The notes: a model not told the origin generated them from the sequence alone. Positions 935 to 14,861 are shown, numbered from the stretch's first letter. The stretch: 14,861 nucleotides of DNA from a virus (IMGVR_UViG_2778261068_000004); one strand, 5' to 3'. A program made the numbers and translations.

Positions 935-1415
935 TTTTCAGCAGCCCGCGGAGATGCGCTTTAACCGCGCCCGTGTCCGGCTGGCGTTTGTCACGATTGG
1001 TCAGCGTCATATGCGTGATGCCCGTCGGCTGGTGATGCGCCGTGCGCGGTCGGCACCGGGTGAAAACCCCGGTTATCAGACCGGACGCCTGGCTCGTTCG
1101 ATTGGTTACATGGTACCCAGAGCCAGTAAACATCGTCCTGGTTTTATGGCACGTATAGCCCCTAACCAGCGTAATGGAGAGGGAAACCGCCGTATCACCG
1201 GCGATTTTTATCCGGCTTTTTTGTTCTATGGCGTGAGGCGAGGGGCAAAGCGTCGTCGCAGCCATCATCGTGGTGCATCCGGTGGCAGCGGCTGGCGACT
1301 GGCTCCACGTAATAACTTCATGGTGGAAACGCTTGAAAAGAACCGCAGCTGGACACGCTATTTTCTGGCGCGGGAATTGCGTAAATCACTGAAGCCGGAG
1401 CGACGACACAGATGA
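909..1415 (+). CDS. Neck / tail-completion protein, HK97 gp10-like family
   Basis: 168 aa, very Arg-rich, includes TGRLARSIGY, which resembles the conserved core of HK97 gp10-family proteins. The start is ambiguous (ATG at 909 overlapping the upstream gene, or the internal Met at about 954). Ends in an ATGA overlap with the next gene. Confidence 0.5.
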   Translation: MATSFLHVDFQQPAEMRFNRARVRLAFVTIGQRHMRDARRLVMRRARSAPGENPGYQTGRLARSIGYMVPRASKHRPGFMARIAPNQRNGEGNRRITGDFYPAFLFYGVRRGAKRRRSHHRGASGGSGWRLAPRNNFMVETLEKNRSWTRYFLARELRKSLKPERRHR

Positions 1416-1980: not shown

Positions 1981-2151
1981 ATGTTTGTGAAACCTGTTAA
2001 AGGGCGGTCAGTGCCTGACCCTGCCCGCGGTGACCTTTTGCCCACCGAAGGGCGAAATGTTGACGAGAACAACTACTGGCTGCGCCGTGAAGCAGCGGGT
2101 GATATCCGGCGCGTGAATAAAAAGGTGAACACCGATGACGATAAGCTTTAA
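1981..2151 (+). CDS. Small (56 aa) protein preceding the sheath gene (Mu gp38-like position); not in the supplied ORF track
   Basis: Read manually: ATG at 1981, TAA at 2149-2151, translation MFVKPVKGRSVPDPARGDLLPTEGRNVDENNYWLRREAAGDIRRVNKKVNTDDDKL. It fills the otherwise unexplained 1973-2134 gap and overlaps the sheath start by 17 nt. Weak ribosome-binding site. Confidence 0.3.
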   Translation: MFVKPVKGRSVPDPARGDLLPTEGRNVDENNYWLRREAAGDIRRVNKKVNTDDDKL

Positions 2152-3631
2152 CACCATTCCGTCGAATACGCTGGTTCCGCTGTTTTATGCGGAAATGGAT
2201 AACCAGGCGGCGAATACTGCACAGGACAGCGGAGCATCGCTGCTGATTGGTCATGCCAATAACGGTGCAGAGATTGTTGCCAACAGTCTGGTGCTGATGC
2301 CGTCGGCAGACTATGCACGCCAGATTTGTGGTGCGGGAAGTCAGCTGGCGCGTATGGTCGAGGCTTATCGCCAGACCGACCCGTTTGGTGAGCTGTATGT
2401 GATTGCCGTTCCGGAAGCCACAGGCGCGGCGGCAACGGTTACGCTGACGGTGACCGGGGAAGCAACCGAAAGCGGCACGGTGAATGTCTATGTGGGACGT
2501 ACCCGCGTGCAGGCTCCGGTGACCAACGGCGATAACGTCACGACGATTGCCAGCAGTATCAAAGATGCCATCAATGCCGTTCCGACTCTGCCGTTTACAG
2601 CTTCATCTTCGGCTGGTGTTGTCACGCTGACCGCGCGTCATAAGGGGCTTTGCGGGAATGAAATTCCTGTCAGCCTCAATTACTACGGCTTCGGTGGGGG
2701 CGAAGTGCTGCCAGCGGGCGTACAGATTGCCGTGGCGACGGGGACCGCCGGAACGGGCGCTCCGGTTCTCACCGGCGCGGTGGCTGCAATGGCGGATGAG
2801 CCGTTTGATTATATCGGTCTGCCGTTCAACGACACGGCCTCCGTTAACACGCTGGTGACCGAGATGAACGATACCAGCGGTCGCTGGAGCTATGCGCGTC
2901 AGCTGTATGGTCATGTGTATACGGCAAAGACCGGCACACTGTCAGAACTGGTGAACGCAGGTGACCAGTTTAACCAGCAGCACATCACCCTGGCGGGGTA
3001 CGAAAAAGAGACCCAGACGCCTGCCGACGAGCTGGCGGCAAGCCGTACCGCCCGCGCAGCGGTGTTTATCCGCAACGATCCGGCACGTCCCACGCAGACC
3101 GGTGAGCTGGTGGGTATGTTGCCTGCGCCGAAGGGGAAACGGTTCACGATGACCGAGCAGCAGACCCTGCTGTCTCATGGCGTGGCAACGGCGTATGTCG
3201 AAAGCGGGGGGCTGCGCATTCAGCGTGATGTCACCACGTACAGGAAAAATGCTTACGGGGTTGCGGATAACAGCTACCTCGACAGCGAGACGCTGCATAC
3301 CAGCGCGTATGTACTGCGCAAACTGAAATCCGTCATTACCAGTAAGTACGGGCGTCACAAGCTTGCCAGCGACGGTACCCGCTTTGGTCCCGGTCAGGCG
3401 ATTGTCACCCCGGCGGTAATCAAAGGGGAACTGCTGGCAACCTACCGTCAGCTTGAGCGTGCGGGGATCGTGGAAAACTACGAACTGTTTAAGCAGTACC
3501 TGGTTGTGGAGCGTGATGCCAGCGATCCGAACCGCCTGAACACGCTGTTCCCGCCTGACTATGTTAACCAGTTGCGTGTTTTTGCCGTGGTTAACCAGTT
3601 CCGTCTTCAGTATTCAGAGGAGTCTGCATAA
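2135..3631 (+). CDS. Contractile tail sheath protein (Mu gpL / gp39-like)
   Basis: 498 aa; AAGGTG Shine-Dalgarno 8 nt upstream of the ATG. Size, position and N-terminus (MTISFNTIPSNTLVPLFYAEMDN) are typical of Mu-type sheath proteins. TAATG overlap with the tube gene. Confidence 0.8.
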   Translation: MTISFNTIPSNTLVPLFYAEMDNQAANTAQDSGASLLIGHANNGAEIVANSLVLMPSADYARQICGAGSQLARMVEAYRQTDPFGELYVIAVPEATGAAATVTLTVTGEATESGTVNVYVGRTRVQAPVTNGDNVTTIASSIKDAINAVPTLPFTASSSAGVVTLTARHKGLCGNEIPVSLNYYGFGGGEVLPAGVQIAVATGTAGTGAPVLTGAVAAMADEPFDYIGLPFNDTASVNTLVTEMNDTSGRWSYARQLYGHVYTAKTGTLSELVNAGDQFNQQHITLAGYEKETQTPADELAASRTARAAVFIRNDPARPTQTGELVGMLPAPKGKRFTMTEQQTLLSHGVATAYVESGGLRIQRDVTTYRKNAYGVADNSYLDSETLHTSAYVLRKLKSVITSKYGRHKLASDGTRFGPGQAIVTPAVIKGELLATYRQLERAGIVENYELFKQYLVVERDASDPNRLNTLFPPDYVNQLRVFAVVNQFRLQYSEESA

Positions 3632-3987
3632 TGGCCCGTATCGGGGGAACCTGTTATTTCAAAATTGACGGTCAGCAGCTATCGCTGACCGGCGGCATTG
3701 AGGTGCCCATGAACAGGACGGTCAATGATGACATCATCGGCCTGGACGGTTCAGTGGACCGCAAGGAAACTCACCGTGCGCCTTATGTCAAAGGGACCTT
3801 CAAGGTGCCGAAGAATTTTCCGGTGAGCAAAATCACCTCGTCTGATGAGATGACCATCACTGCCGAGCTGGCGAACGGTCAGGTCTATGTATTGTCGTCC
3901 GCCTGGCTGCACGGAGAAGCGAACCATAATGCCGAAGAAGGCACGGTTGATCTTGAGTTCCACGGTGAAGAAGGGGATTACCAGTAA
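3631..3987 (+). CDS. Tail tube protein (Mu gpM / gp40-like)
   Basis: 118 aa, immediately downstream of the sheath gene with stop/start overlap. Size and order match the canonical myophage sheath-tube pair. Confidence 0.75.
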   Translation: MARIGGTCYFKIDGQQLSLTGGIEVPMNRTVNDDIIGLDGSVDRKETHRAPYVKGTFKVPKNFPVSKITSSDEMTITAELANGQVYVLSSAWLHGEANHNAEEGTVDLEFHGEEGDYQ

Positions 3988-4256
3988 TGAAAGAGCTTGA
4001 GTTAAAGAAACCGATTATCGCTCATGGTGAGACACTCTCCGTACTGGAGTTTGATGAACCCACCGGGAAGGATGTCCGCGAGCTGGGGTATCCCTACCAG
4101 ATGAATCAGGATGAGTCCGTCAGACTTCTGGCGCATGTGGTGTCGAAATACATTGTGCGGCTGGCGAAAGTGCCGCAAAGCTCTGTCGACCAGATGTCTC
4201 CGGCAGACCTGAATGCAGCGGCGTGGCTTGTGGCTGGTTTTTTCCTCCAGGCCTGA
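3987..4256 (+). CDS. Tail assembly chaperone, short (zero-frame) form
   Basis: 89 aa ORF between tube and tape measure genes, the conserved position of lambda G / Mu gp41-type chaperones. A T-TTT-TTC slippery heptamer lies at 4238-4244, just before its stop codon. Confidence 0.65.
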   Translation: MKELELKKPIIAHGETLSVLEFDEPTGKDVRELGYPYQMNQDESVRLLAHVVSKYIVRLAKVPQSSVDQMSPADLNAAAWLVAGFFLQA

Positions 4257-4405
4257 CGGCTGAATACCTCACTGATCGCTTCTTTGACTGCGCCAGCTAC
4301 TGGCGCATTAATCCCTTCGAATTGCTGAATATGCCGATCAGTGAAATTCCCTTGCTGGTCAGTCAGGCAAACAGGATAGAGCAGGAGAAACGCACACATG
4401 GCTGA
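4223..4405 (+). CDS. -1 frame extension of the tail assembly chaperone (lambda GT-like fusion product, predicted)
   Basis: Open frame in the -1 register relative to the chaperone, overlapping its 3' end and running up to the tape measure start. No plausible independent start: the ORF tracker used GTG at 4223. A slip at 4238-4244 would give a fusion of about 139 aa. Confidence 0.5.
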   Translation: MACGWFFPPGLTAEYLTDRFFDCASYWRINPFELLNMPISEIPLLVSQANRIEQEKRTHG

Positions 4406-6233
4406 ATTTGAGCTTAAGGCGTTGATCACCGGTGTCGACAGGCTTTCTCCCGCGCTGTCGAAAATGCAAAAGAAAATCCGGGGATTTAAACGCCAGGCGG
4501 AAGAGGCGTCACAGGGTGGGCTGGCGCTTGGTGGCGGACTGGCAGCGGGGCTGACGCTTTCCCTGAAATCTTATGCCGATCAGGAAAACGCCGCTACCGG
4601 GCTGAAAGTCGCCATGATGGATGCGAACGGCGAGGTTGGAAAGAGCTTTCAGGACATCAATAAACTGGCTATTGGCCTGGGTAACCAGCTACCCGGTACA
4701 ACGACTGATTTCCAGAACATGATGCAGATGCTGGTGCGTCAGGGGATCCCGGCAGAAAACATTCTGGGTGGTGTGGGTAAAGCGACAGCTTATCTTGCGG
4801 TACAACTGAAAAAAACACCGGAAGCGGCTGCCGAGTTTGCCGCAAAGATGCAGGATGCTACCGGAACGGCCTCAGAAGACATGATGGGGCTGTTCGACAC
4901 AATTCAGAAGGCGTTTTATCTGGGCGTTGACGACACCAACATGCTGTCATTCTTCACTAAAACCAGCTCTGTTCTGAAGATGGTGAATAAGGACGGTCTT
5001 CAGGCTGCACAGAGTCTTGCCCCCATCAGTGTCATGATGGATCAGATGGGGATGAACGGGGAGTCGGCAGGTAATGCCCTGCGAAAAGTTATCCAGTCCG
5101 GATTAAGCGTTAAGAAAATCAGGGACGTCAATAAAATCATGGCCCGCCAGAAACTCGGGGTACAGCTCGATTTTACTGATGGCAAAGGGAGTTTTGGCGG
5201 TCTTGATAACATGTTCAGGCAACTGGCAAAGCTGCGAAAACTGACCGACGTTAAGCGAACAGGTGTACTTAAGGCAATATTTGGTGATGATGCCGAAACC
5301 CTTCAGGTGGTCAATGCACTAATCGATAAAGGAAAGGATGGCTACGATCAGATCCAGCAGAAGATGAATAAACAGGCCAGCCTGAATAAACGTGTTCAGG
5401 CCCAGCTTGGTACGCTGTCCAACCTGTGGGAGGCAATGACGGGGACCGCAACTAACGGCCTTGCGGCTATTGGCGGCGCATTTTCTGGTGACGCCAAAAA
5501 TATCACGCAATGGCTGGGGGAGTTAGGGGAAAAATTCACGAAGTTTGCGGATGAAAATCCCCGGGTTATTCGCGGCGTCGTCGGGCTTGCTGCCGGTCTT
5601 GCGATTCTGAAACTGGGATTGATGGGCGTTGGCGGTGCCATCAGTATTGTCAGCAGGATCATGTCGATGACGCCGATTGGCATGATTGCGACGGCGATAG
5701 CCCTGGCTGCGGGATTAATTATCACTAACTGGGATGTTGTCGGACCTTATTTCAAGAAGCTCTGGGAAACCATTGGTCCTTATTTTGAGGCTGGCTGGGA
5801 ACTTCTGAAGAAGGTTTTTGCCTGGTCGCCGCTGGGGATGGTAATCAATAACTGGGGACCGGTTGTTAAGTGGTTTCAGGATATGTGGGACAAGCTGAAG
5901 CCAATTATTGAGTGGTTTACCGACAGTTCCGGTGACACGGTCGATGCCATTAACTCTGCGCAGTGGGGCGCGGGTGCTTATGATGCTTATGGGACGGGAA
6001 TACCGGCACGGGGATACACACCTTATCAGGCGGTAGATCCGGCTCAGTCAAACAACGCCTCCGATGCCACAGGCCCGAATCCCTTCATGATTAACAAAGC
6101 TTCTGAGCCAAAAGTTGATGGTGAGATCAAGGTCTCTTTTGTGAATTCGCCTCCGGGTATGCGGGTTATGGAAACGCGATCCAGCGGTTTTGATGTCAGC
6201 CATGATGTTGGCTATACGCGCTTTGGCAGGTAA
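4398..6233 (+). CDS. Tail tape measure protein
   Basis: 611 aa. N-terminal region has the core I recall for tape measure proteins (LPGTTTDFQNMMQMLVRQGIPAENILGG ... AAEFAAKMQDATGT). Also has long Gly/Ala-rich hydrophobic segments and C-terminal Trp repeats spaced about 11 residues apart. Sits directly after the chaperone pair. Confidence 0.85.
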   Translation: MAEFELKALITGVDRLSPALSKMQKKIRGFKRQAEEASQGGLALGGGLAAGLTLSLKSYADQENAATGLKVAMMDANGEVGKSFQDINKLAIGLGNQLPGTTTDFQNMMQMLVRQGIPAENILGGVGKATAYLAVQLKKTPEAAAEFAAKMQDATGTASEDMMGLFDTIQKAFYLGVDDTNMLSFFTKTSSVLKMVNKDGLQAAQSLAPISVMMDQMGMNGESAGNALRKVIQSGLSVKKIRDVNKIMARQKLGVQLDFTDGKGSFGGLDNMFRQLAKLRKLTDVKRTGVLKAIFGDDAETLQVVNALIDKGKDGYDQIQQKMNKQASLNKRVQAQLGTLSNLWEAMTGTATNGLAAIGGAFSGDAKNITQWLGELGEKFTKFADENPRVIRGVVGLAAGLAILKLGLMGVGGAISIVSRIMSMTPIGMIATAIALAAGLIITNWDVVGPYFKKLWETIGPYFEAGWELLKKVFAWSPLGMVINNWGPVVKWFQDMWDKLKPIIEWFTDSSGDTVDAINSAQWGAGAYDAYGTGIPARGYTPYQAVDPAQSNNASDATGPNPFMINKASEPKVDGEIKVSFVNSPPGMRVMETRSSGFDVSHDVGYTRFGR

Positions 6234-11294: not shown

Positions 11295-12035
11295 ATGCAT
11301 CGTATAGACACGAAAACCGCGCAGAAGGATAAGTTCGGCGCGGGTAAGAACGGTTTTACCCGTGGTAACCCCCAGACCGGCACACCTGCCACCGATCTGG
11401 ATGATGACTACTTTGACATGTTGCAGGAGGAGCTTTGCAGCGTTGTGGAGGCATCCGGTGCCAGTCTGGAGAAGGCGCGGCATGACCAGCTGCTTACCGC
11501 GCTTCGTGCGCTGCTGTTAAGCCGCAAGAATCCGTTTGGCGATATCAAATCGGATGGCACGGTGAAAACGGCTCTCGAAAACCTTGGTTTAGGAGAAGGC
11601 TCAGCATTGCCTGTTGGCGTACCTGTTCCGTGGCCCTCAGCCACTCCGCCAACAGGCTGGCTAAAATGCAACGGAGCAGCTTTTTCTGCTGAAGAATACC
11701 CGGAACTGGCAAAGGCTTACCCGACAAATAAATTGCCTGATTTACGTGGTGAGTTTATTCGTGGCTGGGATGATGGGCGCGGCATTGATACAGGGCGTGC
11801 TTTATTGAGTATTCAGAGTGATGAAGTCAGAAAGCTCGCATTAAAATACTGGGGGCCAGCTTCAAACAGTTCACCATCAAAAACATTTGCACTCAGCGAC
11901 AGTGCCGGTGGCGGGTTGTACACGGATGGAATAAGTCAGGCAAGCGGTGGGATTATCAACGCTTTTCAGCTCCCCGGCGGGAGTGAAACCCGTCCACGAA
12001 ATATTGCATTTAACTATATCGTGAGGGCTGCATAA
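11295..12035 (+). CDS. stf: Side tail fibre, currently expressed isoform (constant N-terminal part plus cassette A tip)
   Basis: 246 aa; GGAG 7 nt upstream. N-terminus [26 protein letters not shown] is the Mu S / e14 StfP-type N-terminus. The variable part after the crossover motif ENLGLGEG carries a phage tail-collar-like motif (PVPWP ... [23 protein letters not shown] ... [12 protein letters not shown]). Confidence 0.8.
11572..11597. repeat. Left hix/gix/pix-like recombination site (12-2-12, core TT) inside the tail fibre gene
   Basis: CTCTCGAAAACC-TT-GGTTTAGGAGAA. Quasi-palindromic and close to the Hin site TTCTTGAAAACC-AA-GGTTTTTGATAA as I recall it. The core TT occupies positions 2-3 of the Leu codon in ENLGLGEG. 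Confidence 0.6.
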
Positions 12036-12637
12036 TGGATAACGCCGTATTAAATAGCGAGCTTATTGCCACGAAGGCGGGGAATATTACCGTCTATAAC
12101 TATGATGGTGAAACTCGGGAATATATTTCCACATCAAATGAATATCTTGCCATTGGTGTCGGTATCCCTGCATATTCCTGTTTAGATGCGCCAGTTACAC
12201 ATAAAGCTGGTTATGCTATCTGCCGCTCAGCAGATTTTAACTCATGGGAATATGTGCCAGACCATCGCGGTGAAATTGTCTATAACACCGAAACGGGAGA
12301 TGCCAAAGAAATCACAGCACCAGGCGACTATCCCGAAAAAACAACCACTCTCGCACCGTTAACGCCATACGATAAATGGGATGGTGAGAAATGGGTGACC
12401 GATACTGAGGCACAGCATAGCGCCGCAGTAGAAGCGGCAGAAGCACAGCGCCAGTCGCTGATTGATGCTGCAATGGCTTCTATCAGTCTGATTCAACTGA
12501 AATTACAGGCCGGGCGGAAGCTGACGCAGACAGAAAACACCCGACTTAACGCCGTGCTGGATTACATTGACGCGGTGACGGCAACAGATACCAGCACCGC
12601 GCCGGATGTCATCTGGCCTGAACTGCCGGAGGCGTAG
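12035..12637 (+). CDS. tfa: Tail fibre assembly protein (cassette A)
   Basis: 200 aa; TAATG overlap with stf. N-terminus [30 protein letters not shown] is typical Tfa. C-terminal motif LNAVLDYIDAVTATDTSTAPDVIWPELP is shared with the opposite-strand paralogue. Confidence 0.8.
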   Translation: MDNAVLNSELIATKAGNITVYNYDGETREYISTSNEYLAIGVGIPAYSCLDAPVTHKAGYAICRSADFNSWEYVPDHRGEIVYNTETGDAKEITAPGDYPEKTTTLAPLTPYDKWDGEKWVTDTEAQHSAAVEAAEAQRQSLIDAAMASISLIQLKLQAGRKLTQTENTRLNAVLDYIDAVTATDTSTAPDVIWPELPEA

Positions 12638-13052
12638 GCCATTCAATATCTGGAGCACTGGAGGTATCAACCAGTTCCAGTGCGTCCAGATAATCCAGCC
12701 ACAAATTATATTGCGCCAGTTCCTCACCTTTCAGACGACCAATAGCTGCTTTGCCAGGCCATTGCTTACTGTTCATATATTCGTTGGCATTATCAATAAG
12801 ATTTTGCTTTTGAGCTGTGGCAAGGAGCATTGCTTCTTCAGGAGCCATTGGTAGAATATCAACCCACTTAGGTTGTCCATCATCATTTGCACCGCGCGCT
12901 TTCCCTTCAGGTGGTGTTCCTGAATAAGTCAAAAATATTTCATCAGATACTGGTGTAATATCATCCGGTAAGCTGTCATATGAGCGATATAGCTCCAGCA
13001 TATCTACCGGATAAAAAGCTAACGTCGTCCGTGAAAAATAATAATTACTCAT
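12609..13052 (-). CDS. tfa: Tail fibre assembly protein (cassette B, silent in this orientation)
   Basis: 147 aa on the minus strand; C-terminus YNLWLDYLDALELVDTSSAPDIEWPTPP parallels the Tfa motif of cassette A. Its 3' end overlaps the 3' end of the + strand tfa by 29 nt. Confidence 0.75.
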   Translation of the reverse strand: MSNYYFSRTTLAFYPVDMLELYRSYDSLPDDITPVSDEIFLTYSGTPPEGKARGANDDGQPKWVDILPMAPEEAMLLATAQKQNLIDNANEYMNSKQWPGKAAIGRLKGEELAQYNLWLDYLDALELVDTSSAPDIEWPTPPAVQAR

Positions 13053-13053
13053 A

Positions 13054-13407
13054 TCAGCACCCTATTGCAAACCAGCGAAAATTATAATTGCCACCAGAAG
13101 CATCACAGCGTAGAAGAAATCCTGTCCTGGTCATATTCCCTGCTGCCCCGGCAACAATTTTTCCGCCACCATTATCGTAGGACGTCACCACCTGAAAACA
13201 TTGTGACGGAAAAGCGATTGGGAAATTCATCTCATTGCCTGTCGAGCCTACATAACCCGTACCTGCATCTCCTGCCCCCCATTGGATAATCAATCCTCCC
13301 GGTAACTTCTGATATCCCTTGCTGGCAATGCTGCCAGAAAAAGAACTCATATCCGGTATCTGACCTGAACCTGTTCCTACATTTCGTTTTGCCGCTTCTC
13401 CCAAACC
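13054..13407 (-). CDS. stf: Promoterless alternative tail-fibre C-terminal cassette (tip B); becomes fused to the stf N-terminus after inversion
   Basis: Minus-strand frame reads ...INVGLGEAAKRNVGTGSG...GYQKLPGGLIIQWG...NFPIAFPSQCFQVV...GFLLRCDASGGNYNFRWFAIGC, resembling Mu S / lambda Stf-type C-terminal receptor-binding domains. It is in frame with the stf constant part across the crossover core. The Met codons at 13449 upstream are probably not used. Confidence 0.65.
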   Translation of the reverse strand, partial: GLGEAAKRNVGTGSGQIPDMSSFSGSIASKGYQKLPGGLIIQWGAGDAGTGYVGSTGNEMNFPIAFPSQCFQVVTSYDNGGGKIVAGAAGNMTRTGFLLRCDASGGNYNFRWFAIGC

Positions 13408-13421
13408 AACGTTTATGAAAA
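13396..13421. repeat. Right hix/gix/pix-like recombination site (12-2-12, core AA on top strand, i.e. inverted relative to the left site)
   Basis: TTCTCCCAAACC-AA-CGTTTATGAAAA. Its reverse complement shares about 19 of 21 nt with the left site around the core (AAACSTTGGTTTRGGAGAAG). Lies 55 nt upstream of the invertase ATG. Confidence 0.6.
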
Positions 13422-13475
13422 TGAAGAAATAACAAGCAAATGGCATCATTCCTGCTTTTACCAGGGGGATTTAAC

Positions 13476-14030
13476 ATGCTTATTGGCTATGTACGCGTAT
13501 CAACAAATGACCAGAACACAGATCTACAACGTAATGCGCTGAACTGTGCAGGATGCGAGCTGATTTTTGAAGACAAGATAAGCGGCACAAAGTCCGAAAG
13601 GCCGGGACTGAAAAAACTGCTCAGGACATTATCGGCAGGTGACACTCTGGTTGTCTGGAAGCTGGATCGGCTGGGGCGTAGTATGCGGCATCTTGTCGTG
13701 CTGGTGGAGGAGTTGCGCGAACGAGGCATCAACTTTCGTAGTCTGACGGATTCAATTGATACCAGCACACCAATGGGACGCTTTTTCTTTCATGTGATGG
13801 GTGCCCTGGCTGAAATGGAGCGTGAACTGATTGTTGAACGAACAAAAGCTGGACTGGAAACTGCTCGTGCACAGGGACGAATTGGTGGACGTCGTCCCAA
13901 ACTTACACCAGAACAATGGGCACAAGCTGGACGATTAATTGCAGCAGGAACTCCTCGCCAGAAGGTGGCAATTATCTATGATGTGGGGGTATCGACTTTG
14001 TATAAGAAGTTTCCGGTCGGAGATAAATGA
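13476..14030 (+). CDS. pin: Serine DNA invertase (Pin/Gin/Hin/Cin family)
   Basis: 184 aa from ATG 13476, with AGGGGG Shine-Dalgarno 8 nt upstream; the track's 13440 start adds 12 unlikely residues. MLIGYVRVSTNDQNTDLQ carries the catalytic Ser of small serine recombinases; GRRPKLTPEQ and the C-terminal HTH are as in Pin/Gin. Appears nearly identical to E. coli e14 Pin from memory. Confidence 0.9.
   Translation: MLIGYVRVSTNDQNTDLQRNALNCAGCELIFEDKISGTKSERPGLKKLLRTLSAGDTLVVWKLDRLGRSMRHLVVLVEELRERGINFRSLTDSIDTSTPMGRFFFHVMGALAEMERELIVERTKAGLETARAQGRIGGRRPKLTPEQWAQAGRLIAAGTPRQKVAIIYDVGVSTLYKKFPVGDK

Positions 14031-14087: not shown

Positions 14088-14861
<774 letters not shown>

What the first reader, a model, noticed from the sequence alone, without database searches (positions are those of the whole stretch)
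4238..4405. Programmed -1 ribosomal frameshift site in the tail assembly chaperone (lambda G/GT-like)
The zero-frame chaperone ORF ends ...GGT TTT TTC CTC CAG GCC TGA. The heptamer T-TTT-TTC at 4238-4244 fits the X-XXY-YYZ slippery pattern. A -1 slip there continues into an ORF that is open up to the tape measure start and has no convincing start codon of its own. This matches the conserved chaperone frameshift upstream of tape measure genes and would produce a minor fusion protein of about 139 aa.
Basis: partly seen in the sequence, partly recalled or inferred. Interest (0 to 1): 0.45.

Follow-up and report, generated by a model that had tools for sequence, protein, structure and literature searches.

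The report
Tail chaperone -1 frameshift site
This is an unannotated but ordinary example of a well-known phage device: a run of six T's near the end of the tail-assembly chaperone gene lets a minority of ribosomes slip back one base and make a longer second protein needed to build the tail.

Summary
The window is an SfV/SfII-like E. coli/Shigella prophage with a Mu-like contractile-tail module. The 89-aa gene at 3987-4256 lies between the tube and tape-measure genes and belongs to Pfam PF10109 (Phage_TAC_7, the P2 gpE / Mu gp41 family). It ends GGT TTT TTC CTC CAG GCC TGA. T_TTT_TTC (4238-4244) is in the X_XXY_YYZ phase. The -1 frame stays open for 53 codons to 4405 and overlaps the tape-measure ATG (4398) by 8 nt, giving a 139-aa fusion.

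Comparative evidence is strong.
- The T-run is present in phase in all 20 genomic relatives (38-100% identity) and in six further phages.
- Across 15 loci the three site codons are the only invariant residues that use a single codon; 29 others use two or more.
- Third-position variability switches from frame 0 to frame -1 at the heptamer.
- The extension has dN/dS about 0.19, no stops, and usually no start codon of its own.

The layout copies the established P2 E/E+E' frameshift (TTTTTTG, 91/142 aa, same 8-nt overlap). No conserved stimulatory RNA structure was found. No database record examined annotates the fusion. This is a known kind of feature and of low novelty. Efficiency and mechanism (ribosomal or transcriptional slippage) remain untested.

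The parts
3987..4256 (+). Zero-frame tail assembly chaperone gene (89 aa), the gpE / gpG analogue
   Evidence: ORF list and translation. Pfam PF10109 Phage_TAC_7 matches at E=6.8e-15, 55.3 bits against a cut-off of 25. RefSeq calls it 'phage tail assembly protein'.
4238..4244 (+). Slippery heptamer T_TTT_TTC in X_XXY_YYZ phase (zero-frame codons GGT TTT TTC)
   Evidence: Sequence. Present in phase in all 20 genome loci, 6 further phages and 80 of 80 IMG/VR loci. The codons GGT/TTT/TTC are used exclusively in 15 loci, while 29 other invariant residues all use 2 or more codons.
4236..4246 (+). Invariant 11-nt block GGTTTTTTCCT around the slip site
   Evidence: Identical in 15 loci of 55-100% protein identity. 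Variants are GGTTTTTTTCT (L020) and GGTTTTTTCAT (L025).
4244..4405 (+). -1 frame extension (53 codons plus TGA), the E'/T-like C-terminal domain of the fusion. Conserved motif FDCAxYWRIxPxExL...QANRI.
   Evidence: Translation. Aligned extensions from 19 loci. Median dN/dS 0.19 with no stops in the -1 frame, against 1.3-1.5 with many stops in the other frames. Wobble periodicity switches to the -1 frame. Matches phrog_32181.
3987..4405 (+). Predicted frameshift fusion product, 139 aa (3987-4244 read in frame 0, then 4244-4402 in frame -1, with base 4244 read twice)
   Evidence: Constructed. tblastn of the fusion matches 23 phage records as two pieces in two frames.
4398..6233 (+). Tape measure protein gene. 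Its ATG overlaps the end of the -1 extension by 8 nt.
   Evidence: Pfam PF10145 and tape-measure PHROGs. The same 8-nt overlap is seen in P2 (E+E' ends at 1858, T starts at 1851 in L026) and in 12 relatives.
3631..3987 (+). Tail tube gene immediately upstream (context)
   Evidence: Pfam PF10618 Tail_tube, E=2.4e-33.
2135..3631 (+). Tail sheath gene (context: contractile, Mu-like tail module)
   Evidence: Pfam sheath domains. Annotated as 'similar to phage Mu GpL' in SfV.

Best explanation
Programmed -1 ribosomal frameshifting produces two tail assembly chaperones from one start codon.

Mechanism:
- Most ribosomes translate 3987-4256 and release the 89-aa chaperone.
- A minority slip at the heptamer when tRNA-Phe occupies the P site (UUU, 4239-4241) and the A site (UUC, 4242-4244). 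Both tRNAs re-pair one base upstream on UUU UUU (4238-4243).
- Decoding then continues with CCU (4244) in the -1 frame for 53 codons and ends at 4405, on top of the tape-measure start.
- The result is a 139-aa fusion, ...AGFF-PPGLTAEY....

Inferred role, by analogy with lambda G/GT and P2 E/E+E':
- The shared N-terminal domain coats the tape measure protein.
- The frameshift-only C-terminal domain recruits the tube protein.
- The fixed low ratio of long to short form is needed for correct tail assembly, and neither protein ends up in the virion.

Shown here: the sequence anatomy, the family membership of the N-terminal part, the selective constraint on the slip site, and the coding status of the -1 extension.

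Inferred, not shown: that slippage is ribosomal, its efficiency, and the binding partners.
For: (1) Anatomy as described.
(2) The gene is a PF10109 tail assembly chaperone lying between the tube and tape-measure genes in a complete Mu-like tail module.
(3) T_TTT_TTY is present in phase at the homologous codons in 20 of 20 genome loci, from 100% down to 38% identity (Enterobacterales to Derxia). The -1 frame stays open 125-149 nt past the zero-frame stop in all of them.
(4) It is also present in ST64B, phiP27, SfIV, F1055, AH07 and BgVeeders33. Where the preceding residue changes (Gly, Arg, Asn), its codon still ends in T: GGT, CGT, AAT.
(5) In 15 loci, all 29 invariant degenerate residues outside the site use 2-5 synonymous codons. 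G84, F85 and F86 use only GGT, TTT and TTC.
(6) The least-conserved codon position is frame-0 position 3 upstream (0.58) and frame -1 position 3 downstream (0.64).
(7) The extension has median dN/dS 0.19 and no stops. The same DNA read in the other two frames gives 1.3-1.5 with hundreds of stops.
(8) Ten of 18 relatives have no ATG/GTG/TTG in the -1 frame upstream of the conserved motif, and three of these have none in the whole -1 ORF.
(9) Without the extension there would be a 141-nt non-coding gap in an operon whose other genes abut or overlap.
(10) The layout equals P2 E/E+E', which is annotated as a -1 frameshift at TTTTTTG with 91/142 aa and an 8-nt overlap with gene T (PMC3091744).
(11) U_UUU_UUC is among the efficient -1 motifs in E. 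coli: 0.12% alone, 0.9% and 7.6% with stimulators (PMC4066793 and its supplement).
(12) T6 is stable in 80 of 80 near-identical IMG/VR loci.
Against: - No protein-level evidence exists for the fusion.
- No conserved stimulatory hairpin or pseudoknot lies within 5-9 nt of the heptamer. The 46-nt downstream fold has z = -0.18 and the alignment fold finds only a distant coding-explained stem. There is no Rfam match.
- An upstream Shine-Dalgarno-like element is present in many relatives and in P2, but it is weak in this window (-3.9 kcal/mol; 18% of background 9-mers are as good) and absent in ST64B and phiP27.
- In a reporter the naked heptamer shifts only about 0.12%, so the yield here could be very low unless an unrecognised stimulator acts.
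- The extension does not match Pfam PF06528 (the P2 E' domain). Its profile similarity to P2 E' is weak: E=0.009, probability 4.5%.
- No database record examined annotates the joined CDS.
Confidence: 0.88

Rival explanations
1. The same 139-aa fusion is made by transcriptional slippage, not ribosomal slippage. RNA polymerase adds one extra U while copying the T6 run. A fraction of mRNAs then carry U7, and ribosomes read them without shifting into what is the -1 frame of the DNA.
For: The site is a homopolymer. Some relatives have T7 (ST64B, phiP27, SfIV, L020). Sharma et al. note that UUUUUUU is depleted in all three phases in E. coli genes, possibly because of transcriptional slippage (PMC4066793). 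No downstream RNA stimulator for ribosomal shifting was found.
Against: From general knowledge, efficient slippage by E. coli RNA polymerase normally needs runs of about 8-9 or more. The run is always held in the exact X_XXY_YYZ phase, and the base before it is kept as T whatever the amino acid. That is what tandem tRNA re-pairing requires and polymerase slippage does not. The homologous P2 site is annotated as a translational frameshift.
Confidence: 0.08
2. The -1 ORF is a separate small gene (60 aa, GTG 4223 to 4405) translated from its own start, as some records annotate it ('hypothetical protein').
For: A GTG lies at 4223 in the -1 frame. The ORF is annotated as a stand-alone hypothetical protein in phage vB_EcoM-689R6 and in one RefSeq genome. 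phrog_32181 and a few database proteins are such calls.
Against: There is no Shine-Dalgarno sequence before GTG 4223 (upstream ACCTGAATGCAGC). That start is present only in the closest relatives. Ten of 18 loci have no start codon in the -1 frame before the conserved motif, and three of these have none in the whole -1 ORF. In several relatives the -1 frame opens only 15-30 nt upstream of the heptamer. RefSeq has dropped the call in most genomes.
Confidence: 0.02
3. The heptamer is a chance by-product of a conserved Gly-Phe-Phe motif, and 4257-4397 is a non-coding spacer.
For: In-frame slippery heptamers occur by chance about once per 590 codons in this window. G-F-F is conserved at the protein level.
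Against: Synonymous codons are frozen only at these three residues. The T before the run is kept even when the residue is Arg or Asn. The 'spacer' shows -1 frame wobble periodicity, dN/dS 0.19 and no stops in 19 or more lineages.
Confidence: 0.01

Closest known systems
Bacteriophage P2 E / E+E' programmed -1 frameshift (FETUD tail operon; Christie et al. 2002, cited in PMC3091744)
   Same: - The N-terminal Pfam family is the same: PF10109 in both.
- The gene position is the same, between the tube and tape-measure genes.
- The slip site is at the homologous residues...V-G-F-L in P2 and ...A-G-F-F here, both on GGTTTTTT.
- The direction is -1 in both.
- The sizes are nearly the same: 91/142 aa in P2 and 89/139 aa here.
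- The 8-nt overlap of the extension's end with the tape-measure ATG is the same.
- No downstream hairpin is present in either (PMC3091744).
   Different: - The last base of the heptamer is C here and G in P2.
- The extension is not recognised by PF06528, the P2 E' domain. It shows only weak colinear similarity (hhalign E=0.009).
- The surrounding tail module is Mu-like, not P2-like.
- The P2 frameshift has been tested experimentally; this one has not.
Bacteriophage lambda G / GT -1 frameshift (Levin et al. 1993; Xu et al. 2004, 2013, 2014, as summarised in PMC5009743)
   Same: - The logic and gene position are the same: a chaperone gene before the tape-measure gene.
- A -1 slip occurs near its 3' end.
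- The result is a minor fusion whose extra domain is thought to bind the tube protein.
[quoted passage not shown]
   Different: - There is no detectable sequence homology. No lambda gpG or gpT Pfam family hit the fusion at E<=0.1.
- The lambda heptamer is G_GGA_AAG, decoded by tRNA-Lys and tRNA-Gly; here it is T_TTT_TTC, decoded by tRNA-Phe twice.
- Lambda has a non-contractile tail; this module builds a contractile tail.
Bacteriophage Mu gp41 tail assembly chaperone frameshift
   Same: - The Pfam family name covers both ('E, or 41 or 14').
- The tail module is the same in type and gene order: DUF2635 (gp38), sheath L, tube M, chaperone, tape measure gp42, gp43-gp48.
   Different: - Mu is reported to use a -2 shift, not -1 (PMC5009743, PMC2628397).
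- Its zero-frame product is 144 aa, and 144 nt separate its stop codon from the gp42 start.
- Mu has no T6 run at the corresponding place.

Membership tests
Phage_TAC_7 (Pfam PF10109; P2 gpE / Mu gp41 tail assembly chaperones) | Sequence match to the family HMM above the curated gathering score | tested here: met
   55.3 bits against a cut-off of 25, E=6.8e-15, residues 4-86 on profile positions 2-78 of 79. P2 E+E' scores 47.8 bits on the same model.
Conserved tail-assembly-chaperone frameshift of long-tailed dsDNA phages (Xu, Hendrix & Duda 2004) | Gene pair located between the major tail (tube) gene and the tape measure gene | tested here: met
   Tube 3631-3987 (PF10618), chaperone 3987-4256, tape measure 4398-6233 (PF10145).
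Conserved tail-assembly-chaperone frameshift of long-tailed dsDNA phages (Xu, Hendrix & Duda 2004) | [quoted passage not shown] The second ORF has no functional start of its own and ends near the tape measure start. | tested here: met
   T_TTT_TTC lies 4 codons before the zero-frame stop. The -1 ORF is open to 4405. The only upstream start is an SD-less GTG that is not conserved.
Conserved tail-assembly-chaperone frameshift of long-tailed dsDNA phages (Xu, Hendrix & Duda 2004) | The slippery site and the two-frame arrangement are conserved among relatives | tested here: met
   20 of 20 genome loci, 6 further phages and 80 of 80 IMG/VR loci. Synonymous sites are frozen only at the site, and the frame of selection switches there.
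Conserved tail-assembly-chaperone frameshift of long-tailed dsDNA phages (Xu, Hendrix & Duda 2004) | Both the short and the frameshifted long protein are made in vivo at a fixed ratio and are required for tail assembly | not testable with these tools
   Needs a reporter assay, western blot or mass spectrometry, and genetics.
P2 GpE C-terminal (E') domain, Pfam PF06528 | The extension matches the PF06528 HMM | tested here: not met
   P2 E+E' hits PF06528 at 76.3 bits. The window extension and two distant homologues give no hit even at E<=10. hhalign of the extension profile against P2 E+E' gives E=0.009, probability 4.5%, colinear over 43 columns. Distant homology is therefore possible but not shown.
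Lambda gpG / gpT families | Sequence match of the chaperone or the extension to the lambda gpG or gpT Pfam models | tested here: not met
   Only PF10109 was reported for the 139-aa fusion at E<=0.1. The feature is 'lambda G/GT-like' in function and layout only.
Canonical bipartite -1 PRF signals (heptamer plus downstream structure, e.g. IS3, dnaX) | A stable hairpin or pseudoknot 5-9 nt downstream of the heptamer, or an SD-like element about 10 nt upstream | tested here: not met
   The downstream 46 nt fold at -6.2 kcal/mol, z=-0.18. The consensus fold of 14 homologues finds only a 4-bp piece of a stem 45 nt away. The upstream SD-like score is unremarkable in the window. There is no Rfam hit.

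The most novel reading that the evidence does not exclude
The site works at a biologically useful level (several per cent, as reported for P2) without any RNA structure. The stimulator would then be something not yet described for this class. Candidates are the invariant flanking bases (GG before and CCU after the T-run) or the conserved nascent peptide ...DLNxAxWxVAGFF in the exit tunnel. This would explain why the naked heptamers UUUUUUC and UUUUUUG give only about 0.12% in reporters, while frameshifting in P2-type chaperones is said to be 2-3 times more efficient than in lambda.
Probability: 0.1. Interest if true: 0.45.

Novelty: new member of a known kind. Interest (0 to 1): 0.15.

Why it matters
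The main value is for annotation. The 139-aa fusion is missing from every record examined: SfV, SfII, SfI, SfIV, ST64B, phiP27, AH07, BgVeeders33 and RefSeq E. coli prophages. The prophage segment was found in about 1,085 of 5,426 complete E. coli genomes. In some records the extension is mis-called as a 60-aa hypothetical protein. Adding a ribosomal-slippage CDS would correct a systematic gap for a very common Mu-like tail module. Biologically it adds one more well-supported case to the rule that long-tailed phages make two chaperones by recoding. It also shows that the P2-type T6 site is shared with Mu-like tail modules, although Mu itself uses -2. It does not open a new question by itself.

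Tried and rejected
- **Downstream stimulatory structure.** Single-sequence folds, a consensus fold of 14 homologues and Rfam found nothing at the right distance. The 8-bp hairpin at 4289-4307 is 45 nt away, is broken in distant relatives, and its sequence is accounted for by the conserved D-C-A-S-Y-W-R codons.
- **Upstream SD-like stimulator.** It is strong in some relatives and in P2, but not in this window and not in ST64B or phiP27. It was not adopted.
- **Natural in-frame fusions.** An exhaustive HMMER search with the 53-aa extension gave 10 hits: one full-length 'fusion', six short mis-called -1 ORFs and three repeat-protein artefacts. That fusion and the other full-length 'fusions' from the word-index search (P0001-P0006) are singletons whose indels lie at varying places. 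I judged them to be assembly errors.
- **Solved structures.** No relative was found by sequence.
- **IMG/VR scans for more diverse relatives.** They returned only near-identical loci. These were used only to show that T6 is stable.
- **Literature.** Xu et al. 2004, Christie et al. 2002 and Allison et al. 2002 are not held. I could not check whether SfV was already listed there. The SfIV genome paper calls the chaperone a hypothetical protein and does not mention a frameshift.

Full report
**What the window is**

The 1.1 kb around the finding is 98.4-99.5% identical to the phages vB_EcoM-689R6, SfII, SfV, SfI and SKA5. It is 100% identical to a prophage in E. coli strain 165, and related DNA is present in 1,085 of 5,426 complete E. 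coli genomes.

Pfam assigns the + strand genes to a complete Mu-like contractile-tail module:
- head-tail connector, head completion protein and tail terminator;
- DUF2635 (Mu gp38);
- sheath (2135-3631) and tube (3631-3987);
- an 89-aa gene (3987-4256);
- tape measure protein (4398-6233);
- DNA-circulation protein (Mu gp43-like);
- baseplate proteins gp44- to gp48-like;
- tail fibre and tail-fibre assembly proteins.

**Checking the observation**

- The zero frame ends GGT TTT TTC CTC CAG GCC TGA (4236-4256).
- T_TTT_TTC occupies 4238-4244 in the X_XXY_YYZ phase.
- The -1 frame reads CCT CCA GGC CTG ACG GCT GAA TAC... (PPGLTAEY...) for 53 codons, to TGA at 4403-4405.
- The fusion would be 139 aa.
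- The tape-measure ATG is at 4398. It is preceded by AGGAG inside the extension, so the extension ends 8 nt into the next gene.

The heptamer alone is not evidence. Seven in-frame X_XXY_YYZ heptamers occur in 4,117 codons of this window, and TTTTTTY is only mildly enriched, 12 against 5.3 expected. What sets this one apart is its position in the last six codons of the gene and its -1 extension. [quoted passage not shown]

**What the gene is**

The 89-aa protein matches Pfam PF10109, Phage_TAC_7 ('tail assembly chaperone proteins, E, or 41 or 14'), at 55.3 bits against a cut-off of 25. RefSeq names it 'phage tail assembly protein'.

The extension has no Pfam or NCBIfam match. It matches phrog_32181, a family of unknown function made of stand-alone calls of this ORF.

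**Comparative evidence**

A scan of one genome per species returned 20 loci with 100% to 38% protein identity. They range from Shigella, Edwardsiella, Buttiauxella, Citrobacter, Pantoea and Kosakonia to the betaproteobacterium Derxia gummosa.

1. *The site and the open frame are conserved.* Every locus has T_TTT_TTC (or T_TTT_TTT) in phase at the homologous codons. Every locus has a -1 frame open for 125-149 nt beyond the zero-frame stop.
2. *The extensions align and end at the next gene.* They share the motif FDCAxYWRIxPxExL...QANRI. They end within a few bases of the tape-measure start, and in 12 cases with the same 8-nt overlap.
3. *Most relatives have no start codon for the extension.* Ten of 18 distinct loci have no ATG, GTG or TTG in the -1 frame upstream of that motif, and three of these have none in the whole -1 ORF. 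In several relatives the -1 frame opens only 15-30 nt before the heptamer.
4. *An 11-nt block, GGTTTTTTCCT, is invariant in 15 loci*.
5. *Synonymous sites are frozen only at the slip site.* All 29 invariant residues with degenerate codons outside the site use two to five synonymous codons. Gly84, Phe85 and Phe86 use only GGT, TTT and TTC.
6. *The frame under selection switches at the heptamer.* Upstream, the least-conserved codon position is position 3 of frame 0 (identities 0.83/0.86/0.58). Downstream, it is position 3 of frame -1 (0.81/0.86/0.64).
7. *The extension is under purifying selection.* Nei-Gojobori estimates give a median dN/dS of 0.19 with no stop codons. The same DNA read in the other two frames gives 1.3-1.5 with hundreds of stops.
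8. *The arrangement extends to more distant phages.* tblastn of the fusion against about 50,000 phage genomes matched 23 records over most of its length, always as two pieces in two frames.
9. *The base before the run is kept as T.* In ST64B, phiP27, SfIV and F1055 (39-44% identity) the site is T_TTT_TTT. The preceding residue is Asn or Arg, yet its codon still ends in T (AAT, CGT).
10. *The run length is stable.* All 80 near-identical IMG/VR loci carry exactly T6 and an intact extension.

Together these results show that the -1 region is coding, that it is reached from the chaperone frame, and that the nucleotides of the T-run are themselves under selection.

**Comparison with known systems**

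*P2.* In the RefSeq record of phage P2, E+E' is annotated as a joined CDS with 'site of -1 translational frameshift'. The P2 site is GGT TTT TTG and gives 91-aa and 142-aa products. The extension ends 8 nt into the tape-measure gene T (PMC3091744). P2 E carries the same PF10109 domain, and the slip occurs at the aligned residues...DLVALAGKVVGFL in P2 and ...DLNAAAWLVAGFF here. The P2 extension belongs to PF06528. The window's extension does not hit that model, and a profile comparison gives only a weak colinear match, E=0.009 with probability 4.5%.

*Lambda.* Lambda G/GT is the functional paradigm (PMC5009743), but no lambda G or T family matched the fusion.

*Mu.* Mu has the same overall tail module but is reported to use a -2 shift (PMC5009743, PMC2628397). 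Its zero-frame product is 144 aa.

The feature is therefore best described as a P2-type E/E+E' frameshift cassette inside a Mu-like tail module.

**Mechanism and its weak points**

From general knowledge, E. coli has a single tRNA-Phe (anticodon GAA) that reads UUU and UUC. Both the P-site and the A-site tRNA can therefore re-pair fully after a -1 move on U_UUU_UUC.

Sharma et al. class H_HH.U_UU.Y among the most efficient heptamers in E. coli. For UUUUUUC they measured 0.12% without a stimulator, 0.89% with the IS911 stimulators and 7.6% with the IS3 pseudoknot. UUUUUUG gave 0.12%, 0.25% and 0.77% (PMC4066793).

I found no stimulator here.
- The 46 nt after the site fold no better than shuffles (z=-0.18).
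- The consensus fold of 14 homologues retains only part of a stem 45 nt downstream.
- Rfam finds nothing.
- An upstream G-rich, SD-like element is strong in some relatives and in P2 but unremarkable in this window.

P2-like phages are likewise reported to lack a downstream hairpin (PMC3091744), yet P2 frameshifting is said to be 2-3 times more efficient than lambda's (PMC5009743). The actual efficiency here, and what sets it, is therefore unknown.

Transcriptional slippage on the T-run would give the same protein and cannot be excluded from sequence alone. The strict phase of the run, and the retention of a T before it whatever the residue, favour tandem tRNA slippage.

**Rivals**

- Independent initiation at GTG 4223, as annotated in a few records, is contradicted by the missing SD and by the absence of any start codon in most relatives.
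- A chance heptamer next to a non-coding spacer is contradicted by the codon-level tests.

**Annotation status and novelty**

None of the records inspected carries a joined CDS. These were SfV, SfII, vB_EcoM-689R6, two RefSeq E. coli genomes, ST64B, phiP27, SfIV, BgVeeders33, AH07 and F1055. The SfIV genome paper calls the chaperone a hypothetical protein.

The original papers that might already list SfV are not in the held library. These are Xu et al. 2004, Christie et al. 2002 and Allison et al. 2002.

The phenomenon is textbook and the homologous P2 case has been tested experimentally. This is a correct but ordinary finding: a new, or at least unannotated, member of a known kind.

Noticed in passing
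window 11573-11598 and 13395-13420; genes 11295-12637 (+), 12609-13449 (-), 13440-14030 (+): This looks like an invertible tail-fibre segment of the Mu G / P1 C type. A serine invertase (Resolvase + HTH_7, 196 aa) sits next to an oppositely oriented alternative tail-fibre C-terminus (Gp53-like_C) and a tail-fibre assembly gene, which mirror the + strand tail-fibre/assembly pair. A 26-bp imperfect inverted repeat (about 21 of 26 identical, core AAACCTTGGTTT / AAACGTTGGTTT) lies inside the tail-fibre gene and just upstream of the invertase gene.
   Followed up: partly
window 4289-4307: There is a perfect 8-bp hairpin with a 3-nt loop (UGCGCCAG-CUA-CUGGCGCA) inside the -1 extension, 45 nt downstream of the slippery heptamer. 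It is conserved in close relatives but broken in L019, L022 and L025. Its sequence is explained by the conserved D-C-A-S-Y-W-R codons, and it is too far away to be a classical frameshift stimulator.
   Followed up: partly
window 1217-1223, in gene 909-1415: A second in-phase T_TTT_TTG heptamer lies in the middle of a 168-aa gene with no Pfam match. Its -1 frame is open for 29 codons. It is probably chance, and conservation was not examined.
   Followed up: no
window 4223-4405; L001 2124-2306; L005 1323-1505: The -1 extension is annotated as a stand-alone 60-aa 'hypothetical protein' in some records (URC08943.1, WP_001314907.1). In other RefSeq genomes it has been dropped, leaving a gap in the locus-tag numbering (RS20190 to RS20180). 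This is a systematic mis-annotation of the frameshift product.
   Followed up: yes
window 14088-14861 (- strand, runs off the window end): An ORF of at least 257 aa carries a LEM-3-like GIY-YIG nuclease domain. It lies downstream of the invertase, outside the tail module.
   Followed up: no
L009, L011, L016, L018, L026 (P2): 3-5 nt upstream of the T-run: Many relatives and P2 carry a Shine-Dalgarno-like G-rich element just upstream of the slippery run, for example GGGAGGTGG and TAAGGTGGT (-8 to -14 kcal/mol against the anti-SD). The window, ST64B and phiP27 do not. It may be an optional stimulator or a by-product of the W-x-V-A-G codons.
   Followed up: partly
proteins P0123, P0124, P0125: Three long tandem-repeat proteins (998, 216 and 561 aa) scored as hits to the 53-aa extension through many weak repeated matches. 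I judged them to be artefacts of summed repeat scores, not relatives.
   Followed up: partly
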